Source: Escherichia coli (GTDB lineage Bacteria; Pseudomonadota; Gammaproteobacteria; Enterobacterales; Enterobacteriaceae). Taken from it: DNA of 14,769 nt. The translations under genes were made by a program, and so were the position numbers. Within the stretch, counting starts at the first letter, position 1. Each line of letters opens with the position of its first letter. Below are positions 194 through 13,727 of this stretch, one piece after another. Below the pieces are notes generated by a model, which saw only the letters and a list, made by a program, of their open reading frames with translations, did not search any database and was not told where the DNA came from. The stretch lies in the NCBI GenBank assembly GCA_005397905.1, contig GCA_005397905.1_4318.1; one strand, given 5' to 3'.

Positions 194-206
194 TTCATCA
201 CCTCAA

Positions 207-275: not shown

Positions 276-294
276 TTTTTATAGGAATTTAGAT

Positions 295-2710: not shown

Positions 2711-2750
2711 CACGAATTGCTAAAGACGTATCGGTGAAGTGGTGTATTAT
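2708..2750 (+). promoter_or_regulatory. TAGCAC-type promoter-like element
   Basis: TAGCAC 2708-2713 (its TAG is the stop codon of the VRR-NUC gene), TTGCTA 2717-2722, 22-bp spacer, TATTAT 2745-2750. The -10 sits in the loop of a 7-bp dyad (2735-2741 / 2751-2757). Confidence 0.55.
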
Positions 2751-2783
2751 CACTTCATCGAAAACAAACTGGGAGATAAAAAA

Positions 2784-2984
2784 ATGAATACTATCTATAC
2801 TGCTAAATTCTACGAATCACGCAAAACTGGTTACAAATATGAATTAGGAATTACACCTGATTCTTATATTCTGGTTGATGTTGAAGATGAAAACTATGCA
2901 TTCGAAGTTAGTCCGACCTACAAAGATGATTTAGAGACTGTTAAAAACGCATTTGGCGAAAAATTTGATGAGGTATTAGAATAA
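2784..2984 (+). CDS. hypothetical protein (66 aa)
   Basis: ATG at 2784 preceded by GGGAGA; the track start at 2739 is GTG inside the promoter element, so the downstream ATG is preferred. Leader contains CATCGAAAAC. Confidence 0.55.
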   Translation: MNTIYTAKFYESRKTGYKYELGITPDSYILVDVEDENYAFEVSPTYKDDLETVKNAFGEKFDEVLE

Positions 2985-3202
2985 TGAAATTAACCTTTGA
3001 CAAGCAATGGGAAGTTTTTAAGCTAATGGCGGTTCATGAGCTAAAGAAATCTGGATATAACAAAAACCCGTTGGACTTAGCATTTTGCCTAGATATGAGT
3101 TTTGAGGAAGACTACTTGAACACTGATATTGAAACATGGCGCGACCGTATGATTGCTGATATCGAAGAAATGAAAAAAGATTGCCCGGAGGATTTCTTAT
3201 GA
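2984..3202 (+). CDS. hypothetical protein (72 aa)
   Basis: ATG overlaps the upstream stop (TAATG); GAGGT about 10 nt upstream. Confidence 0.5.
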   Translation: MKLTFDKQWEVFKLMAVHELKKSGYNKNPLDLAFCLDMSFEEDYLNTDIETWRDRMIADIEEMKKDCPEDFL

Positions 3203-3399
3203 TTACTGCTACATGTGTAAAAACGAACGGCTCGTTCACTTTATTTAATGAGTATGAATTCAAGATAGACCCGATAAATGACCAGGTTGAAATAGTTAGC
3301 GATGACGGATTTGCATGGAAGTTACATAATGAATTTGATGGTTACTACGGGTGTAATGATTCGAAAGGCAAGCATGTAAGTTTTCTTGTTTATGAGTAA
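3199..3399 (+). CDS. hypothetical protein (66 aa)
   Basis: ATG at 3199 overlaps the upstream stop (ATGA) with GGAGG 8 nt upstream; the track start at 3181 is TTG. Stop TAA directly precedes a TAGCAC element. Confidence 0.5.
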   Translation: MITATCVKTNGSFTLFNEYEFKIDPINDQVEIVSDDGFAWKLHNEFDGYYGCNDSKGKHVSFLVYE

Positions 3400-3400
3400 A

Positions 3401-3443
3401 TAGCACTTTTTGTTAAAACTCCAATCCATGGATTGATTATATT
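3401..3443 (+). promoter_or_regulatory. TAGCAC-type promoter-like element
   Basis: TAGCAC 3401-3406, TTGTTA 3410-3415, 22-bp spacer holding a perfect 12-bp palindrome AATCCATGGATT (3423-3434), TATATT 3438-3443. Confidence 0.55.
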
Positions 3444-3473
3444 AATCACACCAATAACGCAGAGGATTTAATA

Positions 3474-3599
3474 ATGAAGATTGTAGACAAAGAGATGTTT
3501 GAGATCGCGCAGGTTTATGCAAATGACGCAGTGAAAACTGGTTCTGATTATTGCTGGATGTGTGCTAAAGAATACCTGAAAATGGCTTACGGATTATGA
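3474..3599 (+). CDS. hypothetical small protein (41 aa)
   Basis: ATG 3474 with AGAGGA 7 nt upstream; MKIVDKEMFEIAQVYANDAVKTGSDYCWMCAKEYLKMAYGL; stop overlaps the next ATG (ATGA). Below the track length cutoff. Confidence 0.4.
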   Translation: MKIVDKEMFEIAQVYANDAVKTGSDYCWMCAKEYLKMAYGL

Positions 3600-3838
3600 T
3601 AGTTGAAACCGGACGTGACGCCGTATGGGCTCATTGTGGAGAGGCTGGTTTGCAGGATGATATTAAACAGATATCCCGCTTCTTTGACATAAAAGATATC
3701 AGCGTCGTGTTCAATGGTAAATTCTCTTACATGGATGAGAGACCAAGAAAATACGTAAGAGTTAAGCCTGGTGTAAGGATTGATGTTAACGAATTCCTTA
3801 AATCTCAGGGATGCAAATTTAAGATAACGAAGGCGTAA
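3596..3838 (+). CDS. hypothetical protein (80 aa)
   Basis: ATG-initiated ORF translationally coupled to the upstream small ORF. Confidence 0.5.
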   Translation: MIVETGRDAVWAHCGEAGLQDDIKQISRFFDIKDISVVFNGKFSYMDERPRKYVRVKPGVRIDVNEFLKSQGCKFKITKA

Positions 3839-3841
3839 ATT

Positions 3842-4093
3842 ATGTTGGGATTGGATTTTCAGCCAGAGCATTACGACTTAGTGCATGGACATGGTGGGAA
3901 GAAGTTTAGAGCGATACCTATTCCTGATTGGTTTCCTCCTGACTATGTTGATGTTAATGCGAAGACAAATGATGGCAGGTGGGTTCAGATTTACTACTCC
4001 CCAGCGTGTGGAAACCTTTGCATGACTGACCTTGATCAAAAATTAGCAATTAGTGCGGAATTGATAGACTACTGGTTGAAAGAAGTTGAATGA
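3842..4093 (+). CDS. hypothetical protein (83 aa)
   Basis: ATG 3842 with GAAGG upstream; same strand and operon context. Confidence 0.5.
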   Translation: MLGLDFQPEHYDLVHGHGGKKFRAIPIPDWFPPDYVDVNAKTNDGRWVQIYYSPACGNLCMTDLDQKLAISAELIDYWLKEVE

Positions 4094-4176
4094 CGAGCCT
4101 AATACTAGTAGCATCGTTACCACTGTTTAGCTTTACCATCTTATACTTTATCGTAATGAATTAAGGAACTTATATA

Positions 4177-5313
4177 ATGGCAACTGCAAAGATTACCAAC
4201 GAACAACTTCGTGAAGAACTGGCAAATGGCATGACAAACAAAGAAATCGCAGAGAAATACGGAATGAACATTCGCAATGTTGAATTGCGTCGTAGTAAAT
4301 TGGCAAAATCCGGCGAGCTTCATGGAAACCCTGGGATTAAGAAGCTAGTTCCTGACGGCTATTTGGTCAAAGGGACTTCAACGATGATTGATGCGGAAGG
4401 TAACGAGAAGATCCGGTGGGTTAAGACCTCAATTGATAATGAGCGCCTTGAGGTTCTTATGGAGCAGGCTCGAGAAGCATTTTGCTCTGAGTTGCCAAAG
4501 GCAGTTCCATCTGAATCACCTAATGTTAACTTTGACGATAACACGCTTGCGATGTATCCGGTTTTTGATTTACACATTGGAGCAATGGCACACAAACATG
4601 AGTGCGGCGAAAACTACGACACAGCGACAGCCGAGAAGGTAATGAATGGATTCTTTGATTACGCCGTAGATAAGGCCCCAAACTCAAAGAATGCTGTATT
4701 GGTATTGGGTGGCGATTTCCTACATTACGATTCCCTGGAGGCTAAAACCCCGGCCTCAGGCCATATCTTAGACTCTGACAGTCGTTACGCTAAGATTGTT
4801 TATGTTGCAATCCGTTCAGTACGACGTGCAATTTCTCGAATGATGGAAAAGCATCAAGTCATTGATATTAAAGTAATAAGCGGAAATCACGACGAGGCTG
4901 GAATGGTTTGGCTCCGCGCTGCACTTGCTGCATTTTATGAATATGAGCCTCGCGTAAATGTTGATGTTAGCCCAGCTGCAATGATGATGACCAGCTTTGG
5001 AACGACGCTTATTGGATACACTCACGGGCACCAAATGCGGAAAGCCGATACTCGACTAACTGTTATGGCAACTGATTTTCGTAAGTTATTTGGTCAAAGT
5101 GAGTATGTTTACACACATAGTGGCCACTGGCATTCGCAGAAGATTACAGAAACAAACTTGGGAATTGATGAGGTTCATGGGCAGCTGGGAAGTCCTGATG
5201 CGTACTCCGCAAATGGCGGCTGGCGCTCTCAACGTCAAGCGGCAGTTATTGTCTACCATAAAGAATTCGGTGAAGTTGGGCGATTCATTTGTCGCCCTAA
5301 AATGTTTAGCTAA
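4177..5313 (+). CDS. N-terminal helix-turn-helix domain fused to a calcineurin-like metallophosphoesterase (Mre11/SbcD-type fold)
   Basis: 378 aa. HTH-like MTNKEIAEKYGMNIRNVELRRSKL at the N-terminus; phosphoesterase motifs in order: DLH (VFDLHIGAMAH), GDxxxxD (VLGGDFLHYD), GNHDE, THGH, GHWH. AAGGA RBS upstream. Confidence 0.8.
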   Translation: MATAKITNEQLREELANGMTNKEIAEKYGMNIRNVELRRSKLAKSGELHGNPGIKKLVPDGYLVKGTSTMIDAEGNEKIRWVKTSIDNERLEVLMEQAREAFCSELPKAVPSESPNVNFDDNTLAMYPVFDLHIGAMAHKHECGENYDTATAEKVMNGFFDYAVDKAPNSKNAVLVLGGDFLHYDSLEAKTPASGHILDSDSRYAKIVYVAIRSVRRAISRMMEKHQVIDIKVISGNHDEAGMVWLRAALAAFYEYEPRVNVDVSPAAMMMTSFGTTLIGYTHGHQMRKADTRLTVMATDFRKLFGQSEYVYTHSGHWHSQKITETNLGIDEVHGQLGSPDAYSANGGWRSQRQAAVIVYHKEFGEVGRFICRPKMFS

Positions 5314-5356
5314 TAGCGCTTTTTGTTAAAAAACCCCCAGGTTACTGGGGTATAAT
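5314..5356 (+). promoter_or_regulatory. TAGCAC-type promoter-like element (variant TAGCGC)
   Basis: TAGCGC 5314-5319 directly after the stop TAA 5311-5313; TTGTTA 5323-5328; hairpin CCCCAG-GTTA-CTGGGG (5335-5350) in the spacer; TATAAT 5351-5356. Confidence 0.55.
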
Positions 5357-5425
5357 TATCTTGCTTTCAACGAGGAGAATAAATAATTAAAATTGTGGGT
5401 TATTAATAAGATGGAGAATTAGATA

Positions 5426-5980
5426 ATGACCAAATTGTTTATACTGAATGGGCCAGCTGGGGTCGGCAAAGATACAATTGCTGACGTCATGGTTAGTTCT
5501 GGCGCTTGCTGTGAGAAGGTTTCTTTTAAGTCACCCGTGTTTGATGTGGCTAAGGGTATGTTATCAAGCGATGAATTTGATTGGTTTATTGAAAACTACA
5601 ACAATAGAGACGAGAAAGATAAACCTCAGAAAATTCTCGGAGGTAAAACTATTCGAGAGTTTATGATATGGATTAGCGAATCAGTAATGAAACCTGTTTT
5701 TGGTAATGATGTCTTCGGCAGGAGATTGGCTAGTTCACTTGGTGATGGTTGCTATATTTGTGCTGACGGTGGATTTGCTAGCGAGATTGAGCCACTGATC
5801 GACGCTGGTGTTAAGGTCACGTTAATCAGGTTGCATAGGGCAGGGTACACATTTTATGGCGATAGTCGCTCATATATTCACGGGGTGTGTGAAAGAGAGA
5901 TTGATGTTCATGTTGTTGATGGTGATATTAATGGAACATCAGCATTGGTAAGGCACGTAATAAATAGCACGAATTGCTAA
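5426..5980 (+). CDS. deoxynucleoside monophosphate kinase-like P-loop kinase
   Basis: 184 aa; Walker A LNGPAGVGKDT; the N-terminal stretch KLFILNGPAGVGKDTIADVMVS resembles the N-terminus of the T4 gene 1 dNMP kinase as I recall it. GGAGA RBS. Protein ends ...NSTNC with the stop TAA supplied by a TTGCTAA element. Confidence 0.65.
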   Translation: MTKLFILNGPAGVGKDTIADVMVSSGACCEKVSFKSPVFDVAKGMLSSDEFDWFIENYNNRDEKDKPQKILGGKTIREFMIWISESVMKPVFGNDVFGRRLASSLGDGCYICADGGFASEIEPLIDAGVKVTLIRLHRAGYTFYGDSRSYIHGVCEREIDVHVVDGDINGTSALVRHVINSTNC

Positions 5981-6007
5981 AGATAATAGTAAAAACTGGG
6001 TTATCAT
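5965..6007 (+). promoter_or_regulatory. TAGCAC-type promoter-like element
   Basis: TAGCAC 5965-5970 inside the 3' end of the kinase gene; TTGCTA 5974-5979 (its TAA is the kinase stop); 22-bp spacer; TATCAT 6002-6007; leader CATCGAAACGAG...AACGAGGA. Confidence 0.55.
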
Positions 6008-6046
6008 TAACACATCGAAACGAGATGAACCAAACGAGGAAAAAAA

Positions 6047-6223
6047 ATGACTAAAATGACTTACTGCACCAAGAACAACTCCAAGACACTGCCATTTACG
6101 GTTAACCAGCCTTACAATGCCGAGTATCAGGGTGACGGATACTACAAAATTTACGGCGACGATATGACGTGGATTTTAGCGCCGATTGATGGTTCGCTTG
6201 TTGAATTTATTATCGCTGACTAG
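6047..6223 (+). CDS. hypothetical small protein (58 aa)
   Basis: ATG 6047 with ACGAGGA about 7 nt upstream; MTKMTYCTKNNSKTLPFTVNQPYNAEYQGDGYYKIYGDDMTWILAPIDGSLVEFIIAD; followed by an intrinsic terminator. Below the track length cutoff. Confidence 0.5.
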   Translation: MTKMTYCTKNNSKTLPFTVNQPYNAEYQGDGYYKIYGDDMTWILAPIDGSLVEFIIAD

Positions 6224-6249
6224 CGCAGAAAAAACATAGCTTTACAAGC

Positions 6250-6276
6250 GGGGGGCCTTTTGGCTCCCCTTTTTTG
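6250..6276 (+). terminator. rho-independent terminator
   Basis: 8-bp GC-rich stem (6250-6257 / 6262-6269, one G-U pair), TTTT loop, then a 6-T tract (6270-6275). Confidence 0.7.
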
Positions 6277-6354
6277 TGCTTCTTTTACGAACAGGGCTAC
6301 TGTATCATGTTTACACTAACTTAAATATTGACAAATAGACAAATGGAGGATCAC

Positions 6355-6570
6355 ATGAGGGAAGTCATCAACGCCGCTACGGCATCAACTGGCGGTGCTG
6401 CGGTAACTGGAGCGGCAACTGGTCAGATGACTATAGCAATAATCAGCCTTATCGCTCTAATCATTTTTGGTGCCTGGGGTGCTTACTGGAAGTTTAAGGA
6501 TAGCCAGGCGATTCGTCGAGCCCTTGAATCTGGCGACCTAAAAACAGCAATCAAGATAAGGAGCAAGTAA
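6355..6570 (+). CDS. holin, probable pinholin (two TMDs)
   Basis: 71 aa from ATG 6355 (GGAGG 5 nt upstream): a weakly hydrophobic Ala/Gly-rich TMD1, a strongly hydrophobic TMD2 (ISLIALIIFGAWGAYW) and a charged C-terminal tail. An in-frame ATG at 6343 gives a possible dual-start; the track start 6328 is TTG. Sits directly upstream of a SAR endolysin. Confidence 0.6.
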   Translation: MREVINAATASTGGAAVTGAATGQMTIAIISLIALIIFGAWGAYWKFKDSQAIRRALESGDLKTAIKIRSK

Positions 6571-7056: not shown

Positions 7057-7421
7057 TGGTGTGCATGGCTTTATCCGGATGCTCAGCAACAGACGCACTG
7101 ACTGGTTTGATTGGAAGTAAGCCGGAAGTTACGGCTCAGGCCGGGTCGGAGAATAACAAGGTCGGAGTTGGGTTAACTAACAAGGTTGACTCCAGTAGCT
7201 CCAGTGAAGCCACGGTTAAGGATTCTAGAGTAGGGTCTCTTGATAGCTCAAGTGGCAAAAAGACTGCCGACAATTCCATCAAGGCATCTACAATAACCGC
7301 TGAAAAGATTGAGATTACCAATAACGACTCATCCGCGCTCCCGTGGATTGGAACCGGAGCTATGGGGTTGCTGGTTCTGATTCTCTTGGCTGTAATCTTA
7401 AGACGTAAAAAAGCCTCCTAA
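7032..7421 (+). CDS. unimolecular spanin (u-spanin), outer-membrane lipoprotein with C-terminal TMD
   Basis: 129 aa; signal peptide with lipobox LSGC (MLKWIAALVVCMALSGCSA), Ser/Thr/Gly-rich middle, C-terminal TMD LPWIGTGAMGLLVLILLAVIL then RRKKAS; start overlaps the endolysin 3' end out of frame. Same architecture as T1 gp11. Confidence 0.75.
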   Translation: MLKWIAALVVCMALSGCSATDALTGLIGSKPEVTAQAGSENNKVGVGLTNKVDSSSSSEATVKDSRVGSLDSSSGKKTADNSIKASTITAEKIEITNNDSSALPWIGTGAMGLLVLILLAVILRRKKAS

Positions 7422-7438
7422 TGGAGGCTATATTTTTA
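7412..7438. terminator. bidirectional intrinsic terminator at the convergence point
   Basis: 7-bp stem AGCCTCC / GGAGGCT (7412-7418 / 7423-7429) with loop TAAT (holding the spanin stop codon); T-rich run after it on the plus strand (ATATTTTT) and a 5-6 T tract after it on the minus strand (rc of 7407-7411). Confidence 0.65.
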
Positions 7439-7771: not shown

Positions 7772-7774
7772 TAA

Positions 7775-9358
7775 TTACCCCAGCAGTCGCGGATTAATGT
7801 AAACCTTATCACCAATCAGGCAGGTGTAGTTTTTCTCATCAAGCATCGGAAGTAAATGGTCTTTAATCTTAGCCATTACGCCAGCCTGACCCTCAAACGG
7901 CCTAACCTTGCGTGCTGATTCATATAGTGAACGAAGTCCTACAACGCCCTTACTGTTCTTTCCTTGCTTAATCAATATGTCAATTAACTTGTTCATCTCT
8001 GCATTATCGCCAGCGTGACCAGCCGAACTAGCAGCAGAAAGGTAAGTTTTACTTTGTTCGTAAAACATGATAATTGCCTCTTGCATTGTCTCTAGGTCAA
8101 TTTGCCTTGACTTCAATGGCCGCTCATTATTCTTGCATGACCAGTTTCTTATTGTATGAAGAATTGCCGCCATTCGAATAACTTGCTTATCCATCTTGCC
8201 AAGAGCGCCACGCAGCATAGAGTGAGAGTATTTACCTCCATCCGCAAGGTGCGGCTCCATATCCTGGCGTGCTAGATTAAGATATCGCATAGCTGATTCT
8301 GAAATAGATAAATTAACTTGTGTTTCGTTCATAATGTTGTGAATCATTCTAAAGTAATCAGCTTTCAATTCGCCATCAACCGGTTCGTATGTCGACTCAC
8401 CTTTTTCATTAATAAAAACGCGATTTCCAATCATGGGGCGCTCCCTAACCAGCCAGAATCGCTCAGATACACCTATACCACGAGCACCAGCCTCCATAAT
8501 TGCATTGATTGTTTCATCCTGAGCTATTACAGCTATTGCGCCAAGCGCGGTAAACATCAAGTTGTTGTCAGCATTGGCGCGAGATATTGATATATTTCCA
8601 GAATCCCACGCCTTAAGAACTAACTCACTGTTTGTTTTCTTGCTGCCATCTCCGTAGGTCATCCCAAGCAATGAGTTAATTGCCGTTGCTTCGTCTGATA
8701 TTACCGCAAAGTTACCCTGTCGACTGTTTATTCGAGCCAGACCTTCAGGTGTTGTATCAGATACCGGAAAGACAATATCACACAGCTTTTCTAACTTCTC
8801 TTCTAAATCCTCTTTCTCCTCAAACAATGACGCCATTTCGGATGGCGACTTCTCCTGCTTCATCTCTTTCGCCAGCGCTGATAGCTTGGCCATAATCTTT
8901 TTTCTTTCACGCTTTCGCTGGTCATTGATTCGCTCAACCTCGGCTACCATTGGAGCTATTGCGAGTGAGTTAATGGCTGACTTACCAGTCGATGGTGGCT
9001 GGCTGGTTACTACGTACAGTGAGGTTGGTTGCTGCGTTCCGTGATACTCAACAGTAAAACGCCCTAGCATGGCAGCGGAAATACACCCCAGGAAATGCAT
9101 GTATGCGGAAGACTCTGGGAACTGAACAGATCGAGCGATATTGGATGAGAGTTTGCCAACAACATCAATATCATTTCCGAGTGAGATTACGGGATACTTG
9201 TCATTTGCAGCATCAATCTCCACTGGTGCTTTCCAGAATGATTGAGACTGGCGATAGCCATTTGCATTAATGGCGACTCGCAGTGGTGGGAGGTTGTCTG
9301 CGGCAGCAATTGCCATAACCTGTTCAACAGATAGTTTATCTTCGTTGAAATCAAACAT
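7775..9358 (-). CDS. P-loop NTPase of unknown function (527 aa), RecA/DnaB-like Walker A
   Basis: Walker A-like VVTSQPPSTGKSAI (about residues 115-128), Walker B-like FAVISDE (about 217-223), a highly charged predicted helix between them; GGAGAG RBS. N-terminal 43 aa and C-terminal 55 aa are homologous to the 181-aa ORF at 12482-13027. Confidence 0.8.
   Translation of the reverse strand: MFDFNEDKLSVEQVMAIAAADNLPPLRVAINANGYRQSQSFWKAPVEIDAANDKYPVISLGNDIDVVGKLSSNIARSVQFPESSAYMHFLGCISAAMLGRFTVEYHGTQQPTSLYVVTSQPPSTGKSAINSLAIAPMVAEVERINDQRKRERKKIMAKLSALAKEMKQEKSPSEMASLFEEKEDLEEKLEKLCDIVFPVSDTTPEGLARINSRQGNFAVISDEATAINSLLGMTYGDGSKKTNSELVLKAWDSGNISISRANADNNLMFTALGAIAVIAQDETINAIMEAGARGIGVSERFWLVRERPMIGNRVFINEKGESTYEPVDGELKADYFRMIHNIMNETQVNLSISESAMRYLNLARQDMEPHLADGGKYSHSMLRGALGKMDKQVIRMAAILHTIRNWSCKNNERPLKSRQIDLETMQEAIIMFYEQSKTYLSAASSAGHAGDNAEMNKLIDILIKQGKNSKGVVGLRSLYESARKVRPFEGQAGVMAKIKDHLLPMLDEKNYTCLIGDKVYINPRLLG
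9233..9262. repeat. 30-nt perfect inverted repeat, copy A (inside the NTPase gene)
   Basis: rc of 9233-9262 = AATGGCTATCGCCAGTCTCAATCATTCTGG, identical to 12584-12613, while flanking synonymous sites have diverged. Confidence 0.9.
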
Positions 9359-9388
9359 TACTTCTCTCCGTATTGTTTTTGAGAGGCC

Positions 9389-9431
9389 ATTATATCAACG
9401 GCCTCTTATAAAGCATTATCAATTTGTGCTA
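9389..9431 (-). promoter_or_regulatory. TAGCAC-type promoter-like element
   Basis: Minus strand reads TAGCAC-AAA-TTGATA, 22 bp, TATAAT (plus 9431-9389); the -10 lies in the loop of dyad AGAGGCC / GGCCTCT (9382-9388 / 9400-9406). Confidence 0.55.
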
Positions 9432-9544
9432 TTAATTACTCTTAATCCACTTTATGCACATCCATGCTCCGGAAACATAGAGCGCTAGCTTTGCTAACTC
9501 AGCCGCTAAGTGTATAAATAAAGCAAAATCAGAAATAAGCTCAG

Positions 9545-9784
9545 TCATTTTTTAATCTCCATCTCCATAATTTCATAACTTATGTAATTATTTATCATTC
9601 CAATAAGTGATTTTGGGTATGTTTGCATATGATTCTTGGCTGAATCTTCATCAAGATGCGCTGATATGTTGTGAAAATTGTATTCATAATCCATGCCCAT
9701 TAGTATGTATATCTTATCGTGCGCCTTAATGAGGTTATTTGATTTTATTTCCCCAAGCGACCATCCTTTTCCTTTTCTAATCAT
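9545..9784 (-). CDS. hypothetical protein (79 aa)
   Basis: ATG overlaps the stop of the upstream minus-strand gene (ATGA). Confidence 0.5.
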   Translation of the reverse strand: MIRKGKGWSLGEIKSNNLIKAHDKIYILMGMDYEYNFHNISAHLDEDSAKNHMQTYPKSLIGMINNYISYEIMEMEIKK

Positions 9785-10134
9785 TTGTATTGAGCCTCAA
9801 AGCGATAGTCTCCGCAAACTGTAACAAATCCAACATCTTCGTCACGATATAGCTGCCATGCGCTTCCCTCTTTATCGTAAATGTATCCAGCACGCTGCCC
9901 AAGTCCAGCATGGAGATCTACTTGATATCGCTTCCCTTCGGTGAAGTATTTACGAATGGATGAGCGATGATTAACCTTTGTGCAGTAAATTGTCTTGGTC
10001 TTAATATACTTGCCGCGCTCTTCAAGGTTAATCCATTTCCCATCTTTCTTGATTTGTTCTACACCATCTTTAACGCGAGCTTTGTATAGTACGTTTTCGT
10101 TGCTAATCCAGTTTTTGGTAATCGTAGTAGTCAT
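9781..10134 (-). CDS. hypothetical protein (117 aa)
   Basis: Start chosen at the ATG giving MTTTITKNW... (plus 10134) because the track start 10179 lies inside the promoter -10; conserved leader CATCGAAACGAAACAACGAAGGG precedes it. Confidence 0.55.
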   Translation of the reverse strand: MTTTITKNWISNENVLYKARVKDGVEQIKKDGKWINLEERGKYIKTKTIYCTKVNHRSSIRKYFTEGKRYQVDLHAGLGQRAGYIYDKEGSAWQLYRDEDVGFVTVCGDYRFEAQYK

Positions 10135-10170
10135 TTCTTTTACCCTTCGTTGTTTCGTTTCGATGAGTTT

Positions 10171-10213
10171 AATATACATGAAAAGCCACGAAGGGTTTTA
10201 GCAATTAGTGCTA
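10171..10213 (-). promoter_or_regulatory. TAGCAC-type promoter-like element
   Basis: Minus strand TAGCAC-TAA-TTGCTA (plus 10213-10199), 22 bp, TATATT (plus 10176-10171). Confidence 0.55.
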
Positions 10214-10362
10214 TTTCGTGCTTTTTCTATGGCCTTGAGCATAATCTCATGACTCTCAAGCAAGTCATCGCGGAACCAATCACCGCAAGGCCAGCCTTTT
10301 CCGCTGTAGGTGCTGATTACCTCAAGATCGAAATAATTTATCTCAGATGGTAGAAGCATCAT
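10198..10362 (-). CDS. hypothetical small protein (54 aa)
   Basis: Minus-strand ATG at 10362 overlapping the upstream stop (ATGA), GAGGTG RBS; MMLLPSEINYFDLEVISTYSGKGWPCGDWFRDDLLESHEIMLKAIEKARNSTNC; ends in the same ...NSTNC-stop inside the TAGCAC element as the kinase gene. Confidence 0.45.
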   Translation of the reverse strand: MMLLPSEINYFDLEVISTYSGKGWPCGDWFRDDLLESHEIMLKAIEKARNSTNC

Positions 10363-10598
10363 TTCACCTCGTCAAAAGTTGCAATCCCAGGGATAAACAT
10401 TCCAACCTTCCAGCCTGCAATGGCAATCCATCCAGAATCGTGCTTATGCGGTCGCTCAGCGCCATTAATCAACCATTCGTTCGGGATTGTCTTGCCGTTA
10501 ATGATTAGCGGCTCAGCGTCGTATACAGAGCCTTTTACGAATGGTGTTAAAACTTTCTTGTCGGTGCTCGCAATAACGTTGGTGCAGCGAATTTTCAT
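10359..10598 (-). CDS. hypothetical protein (79 aa)
   Basis: ATG with GAGGA RBS; same strand as the flanking small genes. Confidence 0.5.
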   Translation of the reverse strand: MKIRCTNVIASTDKKVLTPFVKGSVYDAEPLIINGKTIPNEWLINGAERPHKHDSGWIAIAGWKVGMFIPGIATFDEVK

Positions 10599-10608
10599 AT
10601 CTCAATCC

Positions 10609-10788
10609 TCAAATAAATGGTAAACATTCATTACAGCCAAGTCCATCACAGCACATGAATTCATCATCTGACTGGAATTGCTTAGCCAAATCAATGTCCA
10701 ACTTTCCGCGCACCACAAGGTCGGTGTAATCTTCGTTCAGCCCAATCAGTGAGCATTCGTGGAGTAACTCATCTTTATCAATCTTCAT
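10609..10788 (-). CDS. hypothetical small Cys-rich protein (59 aa)
   Basis: Second in-frame ATG (MKIDKD...) preferred over track start 10794 on AAGGGG spacing; C-terminal CCDGLGCNEC cluster suggests metal binding. Confidence 0.45.
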   Translation of the reverse strand: MKIDKDELLHECSLIGLNEDYTDLVVRGKLDIDLAKQFQSDDEFMCCDGLGCNECLPFI

Positions 10789-10816
10789 ATCCATCCCCTT
10801 GTTGTTAGTGAGTTAA

Positions 10817-10859
10817 CTGTAGCCTCGCCAGCAACAGATGTCTTTAGCAAAAAGTGCTA
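10817..10859 (-). promoter_or_regulatory. TAGCAC-type promoter-like element (weak -10)
   Basis: Minus strand TAGCAC-TTT-TTGCTA (plus 10859-10845); the -10 at the expected distance is only TACAGT/CTACAG-like. Confidence 0.4.
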
Positions 10860-10861
10860 CT

Positions 10862-11053
10862 TCAGAAATTGATGTTCTCGACAACATGAACCATCTGATA
10901 ACCAAGGCGATAACTGTCACCGAGGATTAATCGACCCATAAACTGATCGTTTGTGAAGCTCTCCTTACCCATAGTGCGAAGCGTTCCGTTATGGATGATG
11001 GTGTCACCAATCTTTACGTCATTCTTATGCGTCAAAACAATATTATTGCTCAT
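10862..11053 (-). CDS. hypothetical protein (63 aa)
   Basis: ATG (MSNNIV...) with GAGGTG 6 nt upstream; the track start 11062 is GTG. Stop TGA lies 2 nt before a TAGCAC element. Confidence 0.5.
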   Translation of the reverse strand: MSNNIVLTHKNDVKIGDTIIHNGTLRTMGKESFTNDQFMGRLILGDSYRLGYQMVHVVENINF

Positions 11054-11067
11054 TATCAACACCTCTA

Positions 11068-11250
11068 TTACATGTGTTTCAGGTAGAAAGCGATTTCTTT
11101 AATGTTGTCTTCTGGATGAGCCTTCACGACTACCGCTAACATCTTCTCAACCAGAGTCTTGCTGCTCTCAGGGTTATAACCTTCCTGAACCAGTAGGGCG
11201 ATAGTGTTTTCGACGGTGACTGGTGAGTTTTTGTTGATGCGCTTAGCCAT
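11068..11250 (-). CDS. hypothetical protein (60 aa)
   Basis: First gene of the leftward operon; AAGGA RBS; leader CATCGAAACGACACGCACTAAAGGAAACC. Confidence 0.5.
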   Translation of the reverse strand: MAKRINKNSPVTVENTIALLVQEGYNPESSKTLVEKMLAVVVKAHPEDNIKEIAFYLKHM

Positions 11251-11287
11251 GATGGTTTCCTTTAGTGCGTGTCGTTTCGATGAGGTA

Positions 11288-11331
11288 ATAATAGCAAATC
11301 ACAGTCTTTTGATTATTAGCAAAAAGTGCTA
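11288..11331 (-). promoter_or_regulatory. TAGCAC-type promoter-like element
   Basis: Minus strand TAGCAC-TTT-TTGCTA (plus 11331-11317), 23 bp, TATTAT (plus 11293-11288). Confidence 0.5.
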
Positions 11332-11357
11332 TTCGTTAGATTTATGTATTGTTGCAG

Positions 11358-11418
11358 ATATTGCAATGATTCACATGACTATTGCACATATAGCAATATT
11401 GCTTCCGATGCAATGATG
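11358..11418. promoter_or_regulatory. cluster of ATTGCAAT-type palindromic operator-like sites
   Basis: ATATTGCAATGAT (11358-11370), ATTGCACATATAGCAAT (11381-11397) and GATGCAATGATG (11407-11418) share TTGCA / TGCAAT half-sites. Confidence 0.35.
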
Positions 11419-11419
11419 T

Positions 11420-11502
11420 TTTTGATTGTTGCGAAAAGTGAAATGAAGTGGTGATTGAGTGAATGAAGGATTGATGGACTACCATACAAGTTGATTTTGA
11501 TT
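11420..11502. repeat. direct-repeat array with GATTG core (five copies) plus TGAA(A)TGAAG repeats
   Basis: TTGATT/GATTGA at 11422, 11453, 11469, 11491 and 11497; TGAAATGAAG (11439-11448) and TGAATGAAGG (11460-11469). Confidence 0.4.
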
Positions 11503-11645
11503 CTGGCTGAGCCATTTTGAGCATACGCGTTATAAAAGTTATGCCGTGTGGATGCGCCAGCTCCCCGCGGGAATCATGTACGCCTATCACGCTAAATTAC
11601 GCAATGGTTACATAATAATATCTATATATATCAACCATTTAGTAA

Positions 11646-11666
11646 TATTATTATTATTATTATTAT
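11646..11666. repeat. (TAT)7 trinucleotide microsatellite in an AT-rich tract
   Basis: Seven uninterrupted TAT units at 11646-11666, flanked by (TA)n and further AT-rich sequence. Confidence 0.8.
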
Positions 11667-11726
11667 ATACGTGTATATAATGTAGATAGTGGATATTGGA
11701 TATTGCGATAGTTTTCTATGATTTTT

Positions 11727-11762
11727 TCCTACACTTGTAGGAATGGTACTACACTGTAGGAA
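11727..11762. promoter_or_regulatory. two adjacent palindromic operator-like sites sharing a TGTAGGA half-site
   Basis: TCCTACA-CT-TGTAGGA (11727-11742) and CTACA-C-TGTAGG (11749-11760), centres about 21 bp apart. Confidence 0.4.
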
Positions 11763-11891
11763 TAAATAGGCATATATGGGCCAATCCACCATAAAAACTG
11801 ATGTACAAGCTGTACACGGTTTTACATTGAGCTATATCTGGGGTTGTGAGCTGAAAAGCGTAAATAAATTGAATTAAACCATGAATAACAC

Positions 11892-11920
11892 TTGATAACA
11901 TGTAACCGCGATGATATTAT
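11892..11920 (+). promoter_or_regulatory. canonical sigma70 promoter with extended -10 (TTGATA-17-TGaTATTAT)
   Basis: -35 TTGATA 11892-11897, 17-bp spacer, TG at 11912-11913, -10 TATTAT 11915-11920; about 40 nt upstream of the ATG at 11961 (CAGGAG RBS). Confidence 0.65.
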
Positions 11921-11960
11921 GCACCCATCTTAACGAAGGAAACCAATCAGGAGTATATCT

Positions 11961-12482
11961 ATGTCAAATCGCATTCAACCAGTAAGCCTTGGTGATGTTA
12001 TCCGCTACATGGCTAAGCAGGCGCTTAAGGCCGACAATCGGACTTTCCATGTTCCAATCCACCTGATAGCTCGCCAGGTTTACGGGCTAACGTCTGATGA
12101 TATTGGTCGAATCAGCGCTGAGGATCTCGAGAGTGGCGGCAAATACAGTTTGGCAAAGTTGAAGGCTTCATATGTCTCTAACACAGTTGCCAGGATGCCA
12201 GAGATTCAGGAGGCGAACGTTCGGGCTAAGCTGTCAATCAAGGACGGAGACTTTGGGGATGATGTTGATGTTCGATGCGCATACATCACCTTGGTCGATG
12301 GGGCAATACAGACAGGAAAGAGAGTGATGGCCAACAACCAGGTAGCCGATAAGGCTGTAAGCGACTTTAAGGCTAGAATCCTCAAGCTGATGCCATCAGT
12401 GACTGAGTTTGAAGGTGATGAGATTACCGGAGCCATCAAAGCAATTAAGATGTACCAGGAAATGATTAAGGAGGCAAAATAA
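11961..12482 (+). CDS. hypothetical protein (173 aa), first gene behind the canonical promoter
   Basis: ATG with CAGGAG RBS; no recognisable motif. Confidence 0.65.
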   Translation: MSNRIQPVSLGDVIRYMAKQALKADNRTFHVPIHLIARQVYGLTSDDIGRISAEDLESGGKYSLAKLKASYVSNTVARMPEIQEANVRAKLSIKDGDFGDDVDVRCAYITLVDGAIQTGKRVMANNQVADKAVSDFKARILKLMPSVTEFEGDEITGAIKAIKMYQEMIKEAK

Positions 12483-13027
12483 TGGGGATGTTTGATTTTA
12501 ACGAAGATAAGCTAACTAATGATGAGATTATGAAGATTGCCATGCGGGATGGACTTCCTCCGCTACGGGTTGCAATCAACGCTAATGGCTATCGCCAGTC
12601 TCAATCATTCTGGTGTAGTGTTGAGGAGTTGCTCAGCGCAAAGCTCAACAGCAAGTCTGGCGTAGTTATGTGTAAGATTCACGGACAGAGCAGGAATGGC
12701 AAGGGGGTTGTCGGAATTCGATCAACATATGAAGCGCTGAGAAAGGTCAAGCCATTCGCCGGACTCAACGGAGTCATGCATGACCTGAAAAATAACATCC
12801 TGCCATCGTTACAGGACGCAGGAATCATCTGCTTAATCGGGGATAAGATTTACGTGCATCCATACATCGTTGGCATGCATGCGATAGAAGTTGAAGAGTG
12901 GTGCGACACCTGGGCTGTTGATGAGCATGCTAGTAGACTACCATACCACTTACGGTACGACGAAGATGAGGTAGAGAAGGCGATTGAGTTCTACCGGAAA
13001 GCTAAATCACTCCTGACCGGTAAATAG
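12482..13027 (+). CDS. hypothetical protein (181 aa), truncated paralog of the 527-aa NTPase lacking the P-loop core
   Basis: MFDFNEDKL...LPPLRVAINANGYRQSQSFW matches the NTPase N-terminus (20 consecutive residues identical); KGVVGIRSTYEALRKVKPF...CLIGDKIYVHP is about 55% identical to the NTPase C-terminus; no Walker motifs. AAGGAGG RBS; stop TAG is part of a TAGCAC element. Confidence 0.75.
   Translation: MGMFDFNEDKLTNDEIMKIAMRDGLPPLRVAINANGYRQSQSFWCSVEELLSAKLNSKSGVVMCKIHGQSRNGKGVVGIRSTYEALRKVKPFAGLNGVMHDLKNNILPSLQDAGIICLIGDKIYVHPYIVGMHAIEVEEWCDTWAVDEHASRLPYHLRYDEDEVEKAIEFYRKAKSLLTGK
12584..12613. repeat. 30-nt perfect inverted repeat, copy B (inside the paralog gene)
   Basis: AATGGCTATCGCCAGTCTCAATCATTCTGG at 12584-12613, in inverted orientation relative to 9233-9262. 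Confidence 0.9.
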
Positions 13028-13067
13028 CACTAATTGCTAAACAATAAATCGGGTAGTCAGCTATGAT
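13025..13067 (+). promoter_or_regulatory. TAGCAC-type promoter-like element
   Basis: TAGCAC 13025-13030 (TAG is the stop of the paralog gene), TTGCTA 13034-13039, 22 bp, TATGAT 13062-13067. Confidence 0.5.
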
Positions 13068-13098
13068 TACCATATCAACCAAACGAGAGGGAAGAAAG

Positions 13099-13203
13099 AT
13101 GATTATTATTAAAGATTTTCATGGCGGCGAGCTGATGATTCAGAAATCATTCCATTTAAAGACAGGTATCAGCCTTATTGAGATTGAGTTCGACTGGGAC
13201 TGA
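13099..13203 (+). CDS. hypothetical small ORF (34 aa), possibly the 5' part of an interrupted gene
   Basis: ATG 13099 with GAGGG RBS and conserved leader; the same frame stays open for 31 more codons after its TGA (to 13299). Confidence 0.3.
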   Translation: MIIIKDFHGGELMIQKSFHLKTGISLIEIEFDWD

Positions 13204-13295
13204 TGTCAGGATGGTCATAGCTACAAGCACCTGAGTTTAGAAAATGCAGTAAAGCTTCGTGACGAGATGTCGAAACTTATTGAGGAATTATCAAA

Positions 13296-13523
13296 ATGAT
13301 TACCATCAACCTGTCAGACAAGCAGGCGGCAGAACTCAAGTCCATGATGAACTCTTTCATGCCAACGCGCTGCGACGGTCAGCGTAATGTGGTAGATGAA
13401 GTTAGAGACCAAATCAACAATCAGCAATTCGACGTTAGTGACTTCGAGTCATCACGTCAATATGAGGCGATGAGTGTCAACGCTGCATACCTGGCTAATT
13501 GGGATAAGGAAACGAAGAAATGA
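13296..13523 (+). CDS. hypothetical protein (75 aa)
   Basis: ATG with GAGGA RBS. Confidence 0.55.
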   Translation: MITINLSDKQAAELKSMMNSFMPTRCDGQRNVVDEVRDQINNQQFDVSDFESSRQYEAMSVNAAYLANWDKETKK

Positions 13524-13657
13524 TTTACATCCACACTTACTACACTGGCAAGTTCAATAGCGTTAAGCACGTTCGGGTTCACGATACCTACGATAGCGCA
13601 AAGGCTCAGTGGTTGGTTCTTGGCGGCGATATTAATTCATATAGAATCGCTGAGTAG
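13520..13657 (+). CDS. hypothetical small protein (45 aa)
   Basis: ATG overlapping the upstream stop (ATGA); MIYIHTYYTGKFNSVKHVRVHDTYDSAKAQWLVLGGDINSYRIAE; stop TAG is the TAG of a TAGCAC element. Confidence 0.4.
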   Translation: MIYIHTYYTGKFNSVKHVRVHDTYDSAKAQWLVLGGDINSYRIAE

Positions 13658-13697
13658 CACGAATTGTTAAAACAGCATTGGGGTAATTTGTTATAAT
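13655..13697 (+). promoter_or_regulatory. TAGCAC-type promoter-like element
   Basis: TAGCAC 13655-13660, TTGTTA 13664-13669, 22 bp, TATAAT 13692-13697 within dyad TGGGGTAAT/ATTGCCCCA; leader CATCGAAACTAACGAGGAAG. Confidence 0.55.
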
Positions 13698-13727
13698 TGC
13701 CCCATCGAAACTAACGAGGAAGCAGAA

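What the first reader, a model, noticed from the sequence alone, without database searches (positions are those of the whole stretch)
2752..13727. Conserved 5' leader CATCGAAAC ... AACGAGGA downstream of the TAGCAC elements
At least six leaders (2752-2783, 6010-6046, 13063-13098, 13700-13727, and on the minus strand upstream of the starts at 10134 and 11250) begin with (C)ATCGAAAC just after the -10 and end in AACGAGGA or AAGG before the ATG. Conservation beyond the Shine-Dalgarno core suggests a shared initial transcribed sequence, a translational enhancer or a protein or RNase site.
Basis: seen in the sequence. Interest (0 to 1): 0.4.

Follow-up and report, generated by a model that had tools for sequence, protein, structure and literature searches.

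The report
Shared start region of phage promoters
The repeated CATCGAAAC…GAGG stretch is most likely the transcription start and short, unstructured leader of a promoter cassette that T1-family phages place before many genes, and its upstream half looks like a binding site for the host's MarA/SoxS/Rob stress regulators.

Summary
The window is an Rtp/T1-like coliphage segment with 11 promoter-like cassettes.

In 1.2 Mb of T1-like phage DNA, 143 of 154 copies of the 9-mer lie 47-50 nt after a TAGCAC element. The 9 with neither a -10 nor a TAGCAC element match chance. CATC sits exactly 5 nt after the -10 in 200 of 213 units and moves with the -10, not with the start codon. This predicts a start at the A, with C at -1.

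Leaders are short (median 26 nt), 48% A and 12% T, nearly structure-free, and end in a GAGG Shine-Dalgarno, often as AACGAGGA. I found no Rfam match and no unusual 16S complementarity. No 5'-end data exist, so the start site is inferred.

The TAGCAC repeat was published in 2004 and 2015 with its role called unknown. It matches the mar/sox/rob box gcannwwntgnnaaa at 15 of 15 positions, in forward orientation, with the same spacing to the -10 as E. coli micF. There is no usable -35.

The leader itself is an ordinary, though previously undescribed, promoter and leader module. The marbox reading is the novel and testable part.

The parts
205..297 (+). Cassette upstream of the helicase gene. Element AATAGCATTTTTTGTTAAA 205-225, -10 TAGTAT 243-248, predicted +1 at 255, ATG at 295. 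The leader has no CATCGAAAC (TCAATTAAA) and is longer than usual (40 nt).
2706..2786 (+). Cassette. Marbox-like element 2706-2726 (the stop codon TAG of the upstream ORF is the TAG of TAGCAC), -10 TATTAT 2745-2750, CATCGAAAA 2756-2764 (one mismatch), predicted +1 A at 2757, SD GGGAG, ATG at 2784.
   Evidence: hairpin TGAAGTG...CACTTCA around the -10
3399..3476 (+). Cassette. Element 3399-3419, -10 TATATT 3438-3443, predicted +1 at 3450 (CACCAATAAC, an A/C-rich variant of the motif), SD AGAGG, ATG at 3474.
5312..5428 (+). Cassette. Element TAGCGC... 5312-5332, terminator-type hairpin CCCCAGgttaCTGGGG 5335-5350, -10 TATAAT 5351-5356, predicted +1 at 5363. An orphan AACGAGGA at 5369-5376 has no start codon after it. 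The next gene starts at 5426. In Rtp this cassette directly precedes the homologue of the gene at 6047.
5963..6049 (+). Cassette. Element 5963-5983 (the upstream ORF stops at the TAA of TTGCTAA), -10 TATCAT 6002-6007, CATCGAAAC 6013-6021, predicted +1 A at 6014, AACGAGGA 6033-6040, ATG at 6047.
13023..13101 (+). Cassette. Element 13023-13043, -10 TATGAT 13062-13067, TATCAACCAAAC (weak variant), predicted +1 at 13074, ACGAGAGGG, ATG at 13099.
13653..13730 (+). Cassette. Element 13653-13673, -10 TATAAT 13692-13697 with TGT in front (extended -10), CATCGAAAC 13703-13711, predicted +1 A at 13704, AACGAGGA 13713-13720, ATG at 13728. A 10-bp hairpin TGGGGTAATT/AATTGCCCCA encloses the -10.
11248..11333 (-). 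Cassette. Element 11333-11313, -10 TATTAT 11293-11288 (TGC in front), CATCGAAAC 11282-11274, predicted +1 A at 11281, AAAGGA, ATG at 11250.
10786..10861 (-). Cassette. Element 10861-10841, -10 TACAGT 10821-10816, CACTAACAAC (A/C-rich variant), predicted +1 at 10809, SD AGGGG, ATG at 10794 or 10788.
10132..10215 (-). Cassette. Element 10215-10195 (the upstream ORF stops at the TAA of TTGCTAA), -10 TATATT 10176-10171, CATCGAAAC 10165-10157 followed by a second GAAAC, predicted +1 A at 10164, ACGAAGGG, ATG at 10134.
9356..9433 (-). Cassette upstream of the 527-aa helicase gene. Element TAGCACAAATTGATAAT 9433-9413, -10 TATAAT 9394-9389 (TGA in front) inside the hairpin AGAGGCC.../...GGCCTCT, CTCAAAAAC (variant), predicted +1 at 9382, SD GGAGAG, ATG at 9358.
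11892..11963 (+). The one canonical sigma-70 promoter in the window: TTGATA, 17 nt, TATTAT, with TG in front and no TAGCAC element. It is followed by gcacc-CATCTTAACGAAGG and the ATG at 11961. It shows that the CATC start and A/C-rich leader accompany the -10 even without the upstream repeat.

Best explanation
CATCGAAAC...GAGG is the downstream half of a compact expression cassette that T1-family phages (Drexlerviridae) repeat about 15-20 times per genome.

Layout of the cassette, 5' to 3':
- A 20-bp asymmetric element, AATAGCAC-KWW-TTGYTAAAAC, at about -50 to -31.
- A 20-nt spacer of free sequence that often forms a hairpin.
- An extended -10, (T)G-n-TATAGT.
- A C-rich discriminator, TACCY.
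- C(-1) A(+1).

Host sigma-70 RNA polymerase is inferred to start at the A. CATCGAAAC would then be positions -1 to +8: the start-site context plus the initial transcribed sequence.

The RNA continues as an A/C-rich, U/G-poor 5' UTR, often with a second GAAAC. The UTR is about 26 nt long, is predicted to have almost no secondary structure, and ends in a GAGG Shine-Dalgarno, frequently as AACGAGGA.

The module most likely does two linked jobs. It fixes the start point and favours efficient initiation and promoter escape. It also presents an open ribosome-binding region that lies almost entirely within the 30S footprint.

Shown here: the anatomy, the fixed geometry, family-wide conservation, restriction to promoters, and lack of structure. 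Inferred: the start site itself, and which step (initiation or escape, translation, RNA stability) selects for the sequence.
For: Identity of the window: an Rtp/T1-like phage, about 85% identical to JulesPiccard, ZL19 and Rtp.

Cassettes: there are 11 in the window, each oriented with its downstream gene.

Family-wide logo from 304 non-redundant units:
- G at -14 in 81%.
- -10 consensus TATAGT.
- C(-1) 67%, A(+1) 80% (1.06 bit), then T C G A A A C G A A A C at 0.4-0.85 bit.
- The spacer carries about 0 bits, so the conservation is not simply recent duplication.

Geometry:
- CATC lies exactly 5 nt after the -10 in 200 of 213 units and follows the -10 when the spacer lengthens.
- The (-1,+1) dinucleotide is CA in 62% and TA in 15%.
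- 143 of 154 exact 9-mers lie in the promoter position. Nine have neither a -10 nor a TAGCAC element; about 9 copies in total would be expected by chance.

Leader properties:
- Median length 26 nt (IQR 24-31). Anchoring on the ATG recovers only GAGG and A/C-richness.
- Composition is A 48%, T 12%. Mean MFE of +1 to start+15 is -1.8 kcal/mol, against -6.0 for random genomic segments and -2.8 for shuffles.
- AACGAGGA is about 50-fold enriched in these leaders.

Independence from the repeat: a canonical promoter without the upstream repeat (11892-11920) still has CATC at the start position.

Precedent: the annotated host-polymerase promoters of T7 start in similar contexts. A1 is GATACT-TACAGC-C|ATCGAGAGGG and A3 is TACGAT-GTACCA-C|ATGAAACGACAG.
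Against: - No 5'-end mapping for any T1-like phage was found in the searchable literature, so +1 is a prediction.
- Only about 40% of units carry CATC[GA]A. The rest keep YA plus A/C-richness, so the specific 9-mer is a preference, not a requirement.
- Per-position information is modest (0.4-1.1 bit).
- C(-1) and the discriminator also form the 3' arm of a conserved hairpin. Part of the conservation just upstream of +1 may therefore serve that structure instead.
- Cassettes sit at mosaic junctions, so recombination between them could help keep them alike.
- Sequence alone cannot separate a transcriptional role from a translational one.
Confidence: 0.7

Rival explanations
1. RNA-processing or 3'-end site. 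In read-through transcripts from the upstream gene, the hairpin that ends at -1, followed by C|AUCGAAAC, would be cut or would stall a ribonuclease. This would leave a hairpin-protected upstream mRNA and a downstream mRNA with the same 5' end as the primary transcript.
For: - The region from -32 to +2 has strong hairpin potential: mean MFE -9.2 against -4.1 for shuffles, z -2.6.
- One dominant register pairs -24 to -16 with -9 to -1, so the stem ends exactly at -1.
- Other annotators called these hairpins terminators in T1 and SA30RD.
- Cleavage before the A would place a U at +2, which from general knowledge is the main RNase E determinant.
Against: - The stems are 5-10 bp, too short for RNase III.
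- AUCGAAAC lacks the U-rich tract of RNase E sites and of intrinsic terminators.
- The fixed-register hairpin is present in only about a third of units, and the motif also occurs without it (for example 6013 and 11282).
- The motif tracks the -10.
Confidence: 0.1
2. Binding site for a regulatory protein. Candidates are the phage Cro-like HTH protein (rtp52 / T1 gp23) acting on DNA at +1 to +13 as an operator, or an RNA-binding factor acting on the 5' end of the mRNA to control translation or anti-termination.
For: - The motif is conserved beyond what start-site selection strictly needs.
- GAAAC is often repeated in tandem.
- A conserved HTH regulator gene sits at the left edge of the window.
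Against: - The motif is not palindromic and has no second half-site.
- Information per position is low.
- About 60% of units lack the specific sequence.
- There is no predicted RNA structure and no Rfam family.
- There is no experimental lead.
Confidence: 0.1
3. Passive conservation. The leaders resemble each other because cassettes spread and homogenise by recombination, serving as homology for modular gene shuffling, with no selection on the transcribed box itself.
For: - Homology breakpoints between the window and Rtp or JulesPiccard mostly fall in or within 20 bp of cassettes: 5325/6065, 9433, 10135/10153, 10776/10859, 11315 and 13101.
- A gene plus a cassette is inserted at 5326-6064, leaving an orphan SD.
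- The T4-type PeSL cassettes are a precedent.
Against: - The 20-nt spacer inside each cassette is fully diverged (about 0 bits) while the flanking blocks are conserved from Klebsiella phages to E. coli phages. That pattern indicates position-specific selection rather than copying.
- Breakpoints are expected in intergenic DNA anyway.
Confidence: 0.1

Closest known systems
Class II mar/sox/rob-box promoters of enterobacteria (archetype micF; activators MarA, SoxS, Rob, RamA)
   Same: - The upstream element GCAC-KWW-TTGYTAAA matches the published marbox gcannwwntgnnaaa at 15 of 15 positions, and it is degenerate exactly where the marbox is n or w.
- It is asymmetric and in forward orientation.
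- Its centre is at about -40, and there is no usable -35.
- The -10 begins 37 nt after xAGCAC in both micF and the phage units.
- A PWM built from the phage elements picks out the E. coli mar and micF marboxes as unique top hits.
- Sites bound in vivo in Salmonella include GCATTTTTTGCTAAA, GCACTATTTGCTAAA and GCACTGATTGTTAAA.
   Different: - The setting is a virulent phage, with 15-20 near-consensus copies per 45-50 kb.
- The phage element is much closer to consensus than most chromosomal marboxes.
- Binding by MarA, SoxS or Rob is untested.
- micF has no CATCGAAAC start region.
22-bp repeat of T1-like phages (Roberts et al. 2004 for T1, cited in Shaw et al. 2015 for Citrobacter phage Stevie, PMC4319613)
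   Same: It is the same element. The Stevie consensus VWATAGCAYKWWTTGYTAAAAV occurs 16 times in Stevie and a comparable repeat 20 times in T1. It was described as asymmetric, intergenic and co-oriented with transcription, and it is annotated as repeat_region in KM236241.
   Different: That paper calls the role unknown and compares the repeat with the L5 stoperator. It does not describe the fixed -10, the CATCGAAAC start region, the leader or the marbox match.
Early host-polymerase promoters of coliphages with conserved transcribed regions (T7 A1 and A3; T5 N25-type downstream sequence region)
   Same: - These are phage promoters read by E. coli RNA polymerase in which sequence after +1 is conserved or functional.
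- T7 A1 starts C|ATCGAGAGGG and A3 starts C|ATGAAACGACAG, sharing CATCGA and GAAACGA with the T1-family consensus.
   Different: - The T7 and T5 promoters have good -35 hexamers and no marbox.
- Their start is 8 nt after the -10, not 7.
- PWM similarity is only modest (scores 2.3 and 4.8).
- A1 has a long leader.
- The role of the T5 and T7 transcribed regions in promoter escape is recalled from the literature, not tested here.
PeSL (promoter-early stem-loop) cassettes of T4-type phages (Arbiol et al. 2010, PMC2839356)
   Same: Both are small repeated cassettes that combine a host-type promoter with a stem-loop. They lie between small non-essential genes and at the boundaries of insertions and replacements.
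   Different: - In PeSLs the stem-loop is a functional terminator separate from the promoter. Here the hairpin overlaps the -10 and discriminator.
- An activator-type upstream element is present here.
- Mini-circle formation is untested.
Translational enhancers in phage leaders (T7 gene 10 epsilon; A/U-rich S1 sites; CA-rich leaders)
   Same: The position is immediately upstream of the SD, and the sequence is A/C-rich and unstructured.
   Different: - There is no 16S complementarity above chance.
- The sequence is U-poor rather than A/U-rich.
- The motif is positioned relative to the -10, not to the SD.

Membership tests
Sigma-70 (extended -10) promoter with defined start region | -10 hexamer close to TATAAT | tested here: met
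   TANNNT is present at offset 36-38 in 11 of 12 window elements and in 17 of 20-21 and 18 of 23 elements in the three complete genomes. The free positions read T 87%, A 74%, G/A 55/35%.
Sigma-70 (extended -10) promoter with defined start region | TG at -15/-14 | tested here: met
   G at -14 in 81% and T at -15 in 44% of 304 units.
Sigma-70 (extended -10) promoter with defined start region | -35 hexamer 16-18 bp upstream of the -10 | tested here: not met
   TTGCTA lies 22 bp from the -10. The true -35 position reads TAAAAC. The consensus scan does not pick up the units.
Sigma-70 (extended -10) promoter with defined start region | Transcription starts at a purine about 7 nt after the -10, preceded by a pyrimidine | not testable with these tools
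   The sequence fits (A at the 7th nt in 80%, YA in 78%), but no 5'-end data were found.
Class II mar/sox/rob-box promoter | Match to the marbox consensus (gcannwwntgnnaaa / AYnGCACnnWnnRYYAAAY) | tested here: met
   The match is 15 of 15 for the consensus and for 8 of 11 window elements. The PWM recovers the E. coli mar and micF marboxes uniquely. ChIP-bound Salmonella sites are identical or 1 nt different.
Class II mar/sox/rob-box promoter | Forward orientation, overlapping the -35 position (centre between -36 and -55) | tested here: met
   GCAC...AAA reads toward the gene. The centre is about -40 relative to the predicted +1. The offset to the -10 is identical to micF, at 37 nt.
Class II mar/sox/rob-box promoter | Weak or absent -35 hexamer | tested here: met
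   Poor -35 conservation at class II promoters is described.
Class II mar/sox/rob-box promoter | Bound and activated by MarA, SoxS or Rob | not testable with these tools
   No AraC-family homologue is encoded in 1.2 Mb of T1-like DNA (tblastn E>=3), so any such factor would be the host's. No experiment is available.
L5-type stoperator (suggested in the Stevie paper) | Repressor sites inside transcription units of a temperate phage that block elongation | tested here: not met
   The element sits at a fixed 37 nt upstream of a -10, that is, in promoters rather than inside transcripts. These phages are described as virulent. The only HTH protein is a weak Cro-like match.
16S-pairing translational enhancer (epsilon type) | Extended complementarity of the leader to 16S rRNA outside the anti-SD | tested here: not met
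   The longest complement of AUCGAAACGAAAC in rrsH is 6 nt, equal to the median of 500 shuffles.
Structured cis-regulatory leader RNA (riboswitch, attenuator, Rfam family) | Conserved secondary structure or covariance-model match | tested here: not met
   No relevant Rfam hit at E<=1; the single match is a yeast snoRNA model (snR3) at E 0.73, a chance hit. Leaders fold at -1.8 kcal/mol on average, weaker than shuffles.
PeSL-like mobile regulatory cassette | Promoter plus stem-loop repeated between small genes and located at mosaic junctions | tested here: inconclusive
   Hairpin potential has z -2.6. About 12 of 20 homology breakpoints lie within 20 bp of a cassette. However, breakpoints are expected in intergenic DNA anyway, and mini-circles cannot be tested.

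The most novel reading that the evidence does not exclude
The 22-bp TAGCAC repeat of T1-family phages has been described in print as having an unknown role. On this reading it is a near-consensus class II mar/sox/rob box, placed exactly as in micF. These virulent phages would then wire most of their transcription units (about 15-20 per genome, early and late) to the host stress activators Rob, MarA and SoxS (RamA in Klebsiella). They would use promoters with no -35 hexamer, and the conserved TGnTATAGT-TACCC-CATCGAAAC region would be the matched core promoter and start site. Phage gene expression would then respond to bile salts, oxidative stress or antibiotic stress in the gut.
Probability: 0.5. 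Interest if true: 0.75.

Novelty: new variant of a known kind. Interest (0 to 1): 0.5.

Why it matters
Taken alone, the leader motif is an ordinary feature: the start site and short open leader of a repeated phage promoter. It is useful for annotating transcription units in hundreds of T1-like genomes, where pipelines currently call sigma-70 promoters by -35/-10 consensus and label the embedded hairpins as terminators.

Its context matters more. The cassette explains a repeat whose role has been described as unknown since the T1 genome paper. It also yields a simple hypothesis that can be tested directly. T1-like phages include therapy candidates against Klebsiella and E. coli and a notorious fermentation contaminant. 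If they depend on, or are boosted by, the host MarA/SoxS/Rob regulon, then host antibiotic-stress physiology would be linked to phage productivity.

The compact cassette is about 85 bp: activator site, extended -10, defined start and a 26-nt unstructured leader. That also makes it a candidate expression part.

Tried and rejected
- **Canonical promoter reading (TTGCTA as the -35).** Rejected. The spacing to the -10 is 22 bp in nearly all units, and the consensus scan does not find the units.
- **Symmetric operator TAGCA-N5-TGCTA for a dimeric HTH protein.** Considered unlikely. The conserved flanks are asymmetric (AA..C on the left, T..AAAAC on the right). The phage regulator is only a weak Cro-like match. 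This is not excluded.
- **Phage-encoded MarA-like activator.** tblastn with MarA and SoxS against 1.2 Mb of T1-like DNA found nothing.
- **Known RNA family.** No relevant Rfam hit; the only match at E<=1 is a chance snoRNA hit, snR3, E 0.73.
- **16S-pairing enhancer.** At chance level.
- **Motif elsewhere in the genome.** A low-threshold PWM scan gives mostly chance hits, and the excess equals the in-unit hits. The exact 9-mer analysis is cleaner.
- **Similarity to T7 A1 and A3 start regions.** Real at the level of shared 6-7-mers, but the PWM scores are modest and the comparison was chosen after the fact. I treat it as a lead only.
- **fumC and nfo marbox geometry.** The candidates have a -10-like hexamer at the same offset, but their identity as the documented marboxes rests on my memory. 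I do not rely on them.
- **Literature.** I found no TSS or RNA-seq data for T1-like phages and no paper linking marboxes to phage promoters in the held library. The Rtp genome paper could not be opened, and I did not try to open the T1 genome paper. Prior description of the -10 and leader part therefore cannot be excluded.

Full report
**What the window is.** Megablast places the 14.8-kb window in the T1 family (Drexlerviridae, Braunvirinae). The best matches are Escherichia phages JulesPiccard, ZL19 and Rtp, at about 85% identity over 66-76% of the window. By synteny with Rtp it runs from the 5' end of the HTH regulator gene (rtp52 homologue, minus strand, 1-192) through:
- the helicase and VRR-NUC genes,
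- small early genes,
- the lysis cassette,
- a second helicase on the minus strand,
- and, after a long non-coding stretch, the left-end small genes.

**Checking the observation.**
- Exact CATCGAAAC occurs at 6013, 13703 (+) and 10165, 11282 (-). CATCGAAAA occurs at 2756. About 0.1 exact copies would be expected by chance.
- The window holds 11 units of the form AATAGCAC-NNN-TTGCTAAA, about 20 nt, then TANNNT.
- The five boxes all begin 5 nt after the -10 hexamer and 48-49 nt after the T of TAGCAC.
- The sixth leader cited (13063-13098) has only TATCAACCAAAC.
- AACGAGGA occurs three times in the window, always in a unit leader.
- The description is therefore accurate, with one weak and one imperfect member.

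**Is the motif conserved elsewhere?** I read three complete genomes (Rtp, T1, JulesPiccard) and 120 further stretches from more than 60 IMG/VR T1-like contigs. The contigs were retrieved with a pattern that specified only the upstream element and TATAGT.
- A looser scan found 528 units, which reduce to 304 after removing near-duplicates.
- Anchored on the -10, information is about 0 bits across the 20-nt spacer, then rises.
- The conserved positions are G(-14) 81%, TATAGT, TACCY, C(-1) 67%, A(+1) 80% (1.06 bit), T 61%, C 49%, G 46%, A 71%, A 72%, A 66%, C 51%, followed by a second (G)AAAC.
- blastn with one 91-nt unit finds the cassette in 432 phage records from Klebsiella, Escherichia, Shigella, Citrobacter and Salmonella phages.

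**What the box is tied to.**
- CATC[GA]A lies exactly 5 nt after the hexamer in 200 of 213 units.
- Where the -10 sits 1 nt further from TAGCAC, the box moves with it: 20 units at offset 49 and none at 48.
- The distance to the start codon varies, with a median leader of 26 nt, an IQR of 24-31 and a second mode at 30-35. Aligning on the ATG leaves only GAGG at -12 to -9 and an A/C-rich run.
- Of 154 exact CATCGAAAC copies in 1.2 Mb, 143 are in the promoter position. Nine have neither a -10 nor a TAGCAC element; about 9 copies in total would be expected by chance.
- The box therefore belongs to the promoter, not to the Shine-Dalgarno region.
- Its A is the 7th nt after the -10 and is preceded by a pyrimidine (CA 62%, TA 15%). 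From established knowledge of E. coli start-site selection, this is the preferred context, the classic CAT.
- I found no 5'-end mapping for any T1-like phage. Published genome papers used only BPROM or consensus predictions. The start site is therefore inferred.

**The leader as RNA.**
- From the predicted +1 to the start codon, composition is A 48%, C 19%, G 21%, T 12%. The genomes have 29% A and 26% T.
- The segment from +1 to start+15 folds at a mean of -1.8 kcal/mol. Random genomic segments of the same length fold at -6.0 and mononucleotide shuffles at -2.8.
- No relevant Rfam family matches; the only hit at E<=1 is a chance snoRNA match, snR3, E 0.73.
- The consensus AUCGAAACGAAAC has no complementarity to 16S rRNA beyond chance: 6 nt, equal to the median of shuffles.
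- AACGAGGA is about 50-fold enriched in these leaders, whereas GGAGG is not. Promoter-proximal genes therefore use a characteristic AAC-GAGG context.
- With a 26-nt UTR, almost the whole leader lies within the 30S footprint. Roles in transcription initiation and in translation initiation cannot be separated from sequence alone.

**The upstream half of the cassette.**
- TTGCTA cannot be the -35. It lies 22 bp from the -10, and the real -35 position reads TAAAAC.
- The element is strongly conserved and asymmetric: A A T A G C A C K W W T T G Y T A A A A C.
- This matches the marbox used by the Grainger laboratory, 5'-gcannwwntgnnaaa-3', at every specified position. It is degenerate exactly where the marbox is n or w.
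- The reverse complement of the E. coli mar marbox, read from the K-12 genome, is GATGCCACGTTTTGCTAAATC. That is 16 of 21 identical to the phage consensus.
- A PWM built from the phage elements picks the mar marbox as the single positive hit in the mar locus (12.3 against -8.0 for the next). It also picks GACAGCACTGAATGTCAAAAC as the single positive hit upstream of micF (8.1 against -12.3).
- In micF the -10 (TAGAAT) begins 37 nt after xAGCAC, the same as the phage mode. The annotated micF +1 puts the element at -50, against -49 predicted for the phage.
- Class II marbox promoters are defined as forward-oriented, overlapping the -35, and poor in -35 sequence.
- Sites bound in vivo by SoxS, MarA or RamA in Salmonella include GCATTTTTTGCTAAA, GCACTATTTGCTAAA and GCACTGATTGTTAAA. 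These are identical to, or 1 nt from, phage elements.
- No MarA/SoxS homologue is encoded in the phage DNA I hold. The phage HTH regulator is a weak Cro-like match.
- The cassettes therefore have the anatomy of micF-type class II promoters. Binding by host Rob, MarA or SoxS is an inference that I could not test.

**Prior art.** The Stevie genome announcement reports 16 copies of VWATAGCAYKWWTTGYTAAAAV and a comparable 20-copy repeat in T1 (Roberts et al. 2004). It calls the repeat asymmetric, intergenic and co-oriented with transcription, and states that its role is unknown. GenBank KM236241 annotates the copies as repeat_region. The repeat itself is therefore known. In the literature I could read, I found no description of the fixed -10, the start box, the leader or the marbox match. 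I could not open the Rtp genome paper and did not try to open the T1 genome paper.

**Other features of the cassette.**
- The stretch from -32 to +2 has strong hairpin potential: mean MFE -9.2 against -4.1 for shuffles, z -2.6.
- The dominant register, in about one third of units, pairs -24 to -16 with -9 to -1 and leaves TGnTAT in the loop.
- In other units the hairpin lies wholly upstream of the -10, and the T-rich -10 follows it like a terminator tail.
- T1 and SA30RD annotators called several of these hairpins rho-independent terminators.
- The 3' arm ends at -1, so the hairpin is not part of the transcript made from its own promoter. Its function is unexplained.
- Homology breakpoints between the window and Rtp or JulesPiccard fall mostly in or next to cassettes. 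The segment 5326-6064 (a 184-aa gene plus a cassette) is an insertion between two cassettes and leaves an orphan AACGAGGA at 5369-5376. This resembles the PeSL cassettes of T4-type phages, although intergenic breakpoints are expected anyway.

**Comparison with known start regions.** The RefSeq-annotated E. coli promoters of T7 start at C|ATCGAGAGGG (A1) and C|ATGAAACGACAG (A3). They share CATCGA and GAAACGA with the T1-family consensus. PWM scores are modest and the comparison was made after the fact. I take it only as a hint that this start context suits strong phage promoters read by the host polymerase.

**Verdict.** The finding is real. It is best explained as the start site, initial transcribed sequence and short unstructured leader of a family-wide promoter cassette (confidence 0.7). 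Rival readings each get about 0.1: an RNA-processing site, a protein-binding site, or passive homogenisation. The leader alone is of modest interest. The cassette as a whole gives a testable function, a class II marbox promoter, to a repeat whose role had been described as unknown. That raises the overall interest to about 0.5.

Noticed in passing
window 205-225, 2706-2726, 3399-3419, 5312-5332, 5963-5983, 13023-13043, 13653-13673 (+); 11333-11313, 10861-10841, 10215-10195, 9433-9413 (-): The TAGCAC repeat matches the enterobacterial mar/sox/rob box (gcannwwntgnnaaa) at all specified positions. It is in forward orientation and has the same 37-nt offset to the -10 as E. coli micF. Published notes on this repeat call its role unknown.
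   Followed up: yes
window 2715-2760, 5335-5350, 9401-9425, 13033-13052, 13661-13686; family-wide in L001-L123: Inverted repeats flank or precede the -10 in most cassettes (mean MFE -9.2 against -4.1 for shuffles). The dominant register pairs -24 to -16 with -9 to -1 and leaves TGnTAT in the loop. Other annotators labelled some of these hairpins rho-independent terminators. Their function is unexplained.
   Followed up: partly
window 5326-6064 and breakpoints near 9433, 10135-10156, 10776-10859, 11315, 13101: Homology with Rtp and JulesPiccard breaks in or next to the cassettes. A 184-aa P-loop-like gene plus a cassette is inserted between two cassettes, leaving an orphan AACGAGGA (5369-5376) with no start codon. 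This suggests cassette-mediated modular shuffling, as with the PeSL cassettes of T4-type phages.
   Followed up: partly
window 2708-2710, 5978-5980, 13025-13027, 13655-13657, 10200-10198: Stop codons of upstream genes are built into the repeat, either as the TAG of TAGCAC or the TAA of TTGCTAA. Gene ends and the next promoter's activator site therefore overlap.
   Followed up: no
window 11892-11963: This is the only good canonical sigma-70 promoter in the window: TTGATA, 17 nt, TATTAT, with TG in front. It has no TAGCAC element but still has CATC at the start position and AACGAAGG before the ATG at 11961.
   Followed up: partly
window 11340-11890: A non-coding stretch of about 550 bp aligns to the first 295 bp of the Rtp record. 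It contains an (ATT)n run near 11651-11668 and repeated CCTACA..TGTAGGAAT motifs near 11729-11765. It may be a genome-end, packaging or origin region.
   Followed up: no
window 6250-6269 and 7412-7429: Two strong terminator-like hairpins flank the lysis cassette: GGGGGGCC...GGCTCCCC followed by TTTTTT, and a bidirectional AGCCTCC...GGAGGCT. No TAGCAC cassette precedes the holin gene.
   Followed up: no
window 1-192 (-): This is the 5' part of the homologue of rtp52 / T1 gp23. It is annotated as a transcriptional regulator and gives only a weak P22 Cro-like HTH match in Pfam. It diverges from the first cassette at 205-297.
   Followed up: partly
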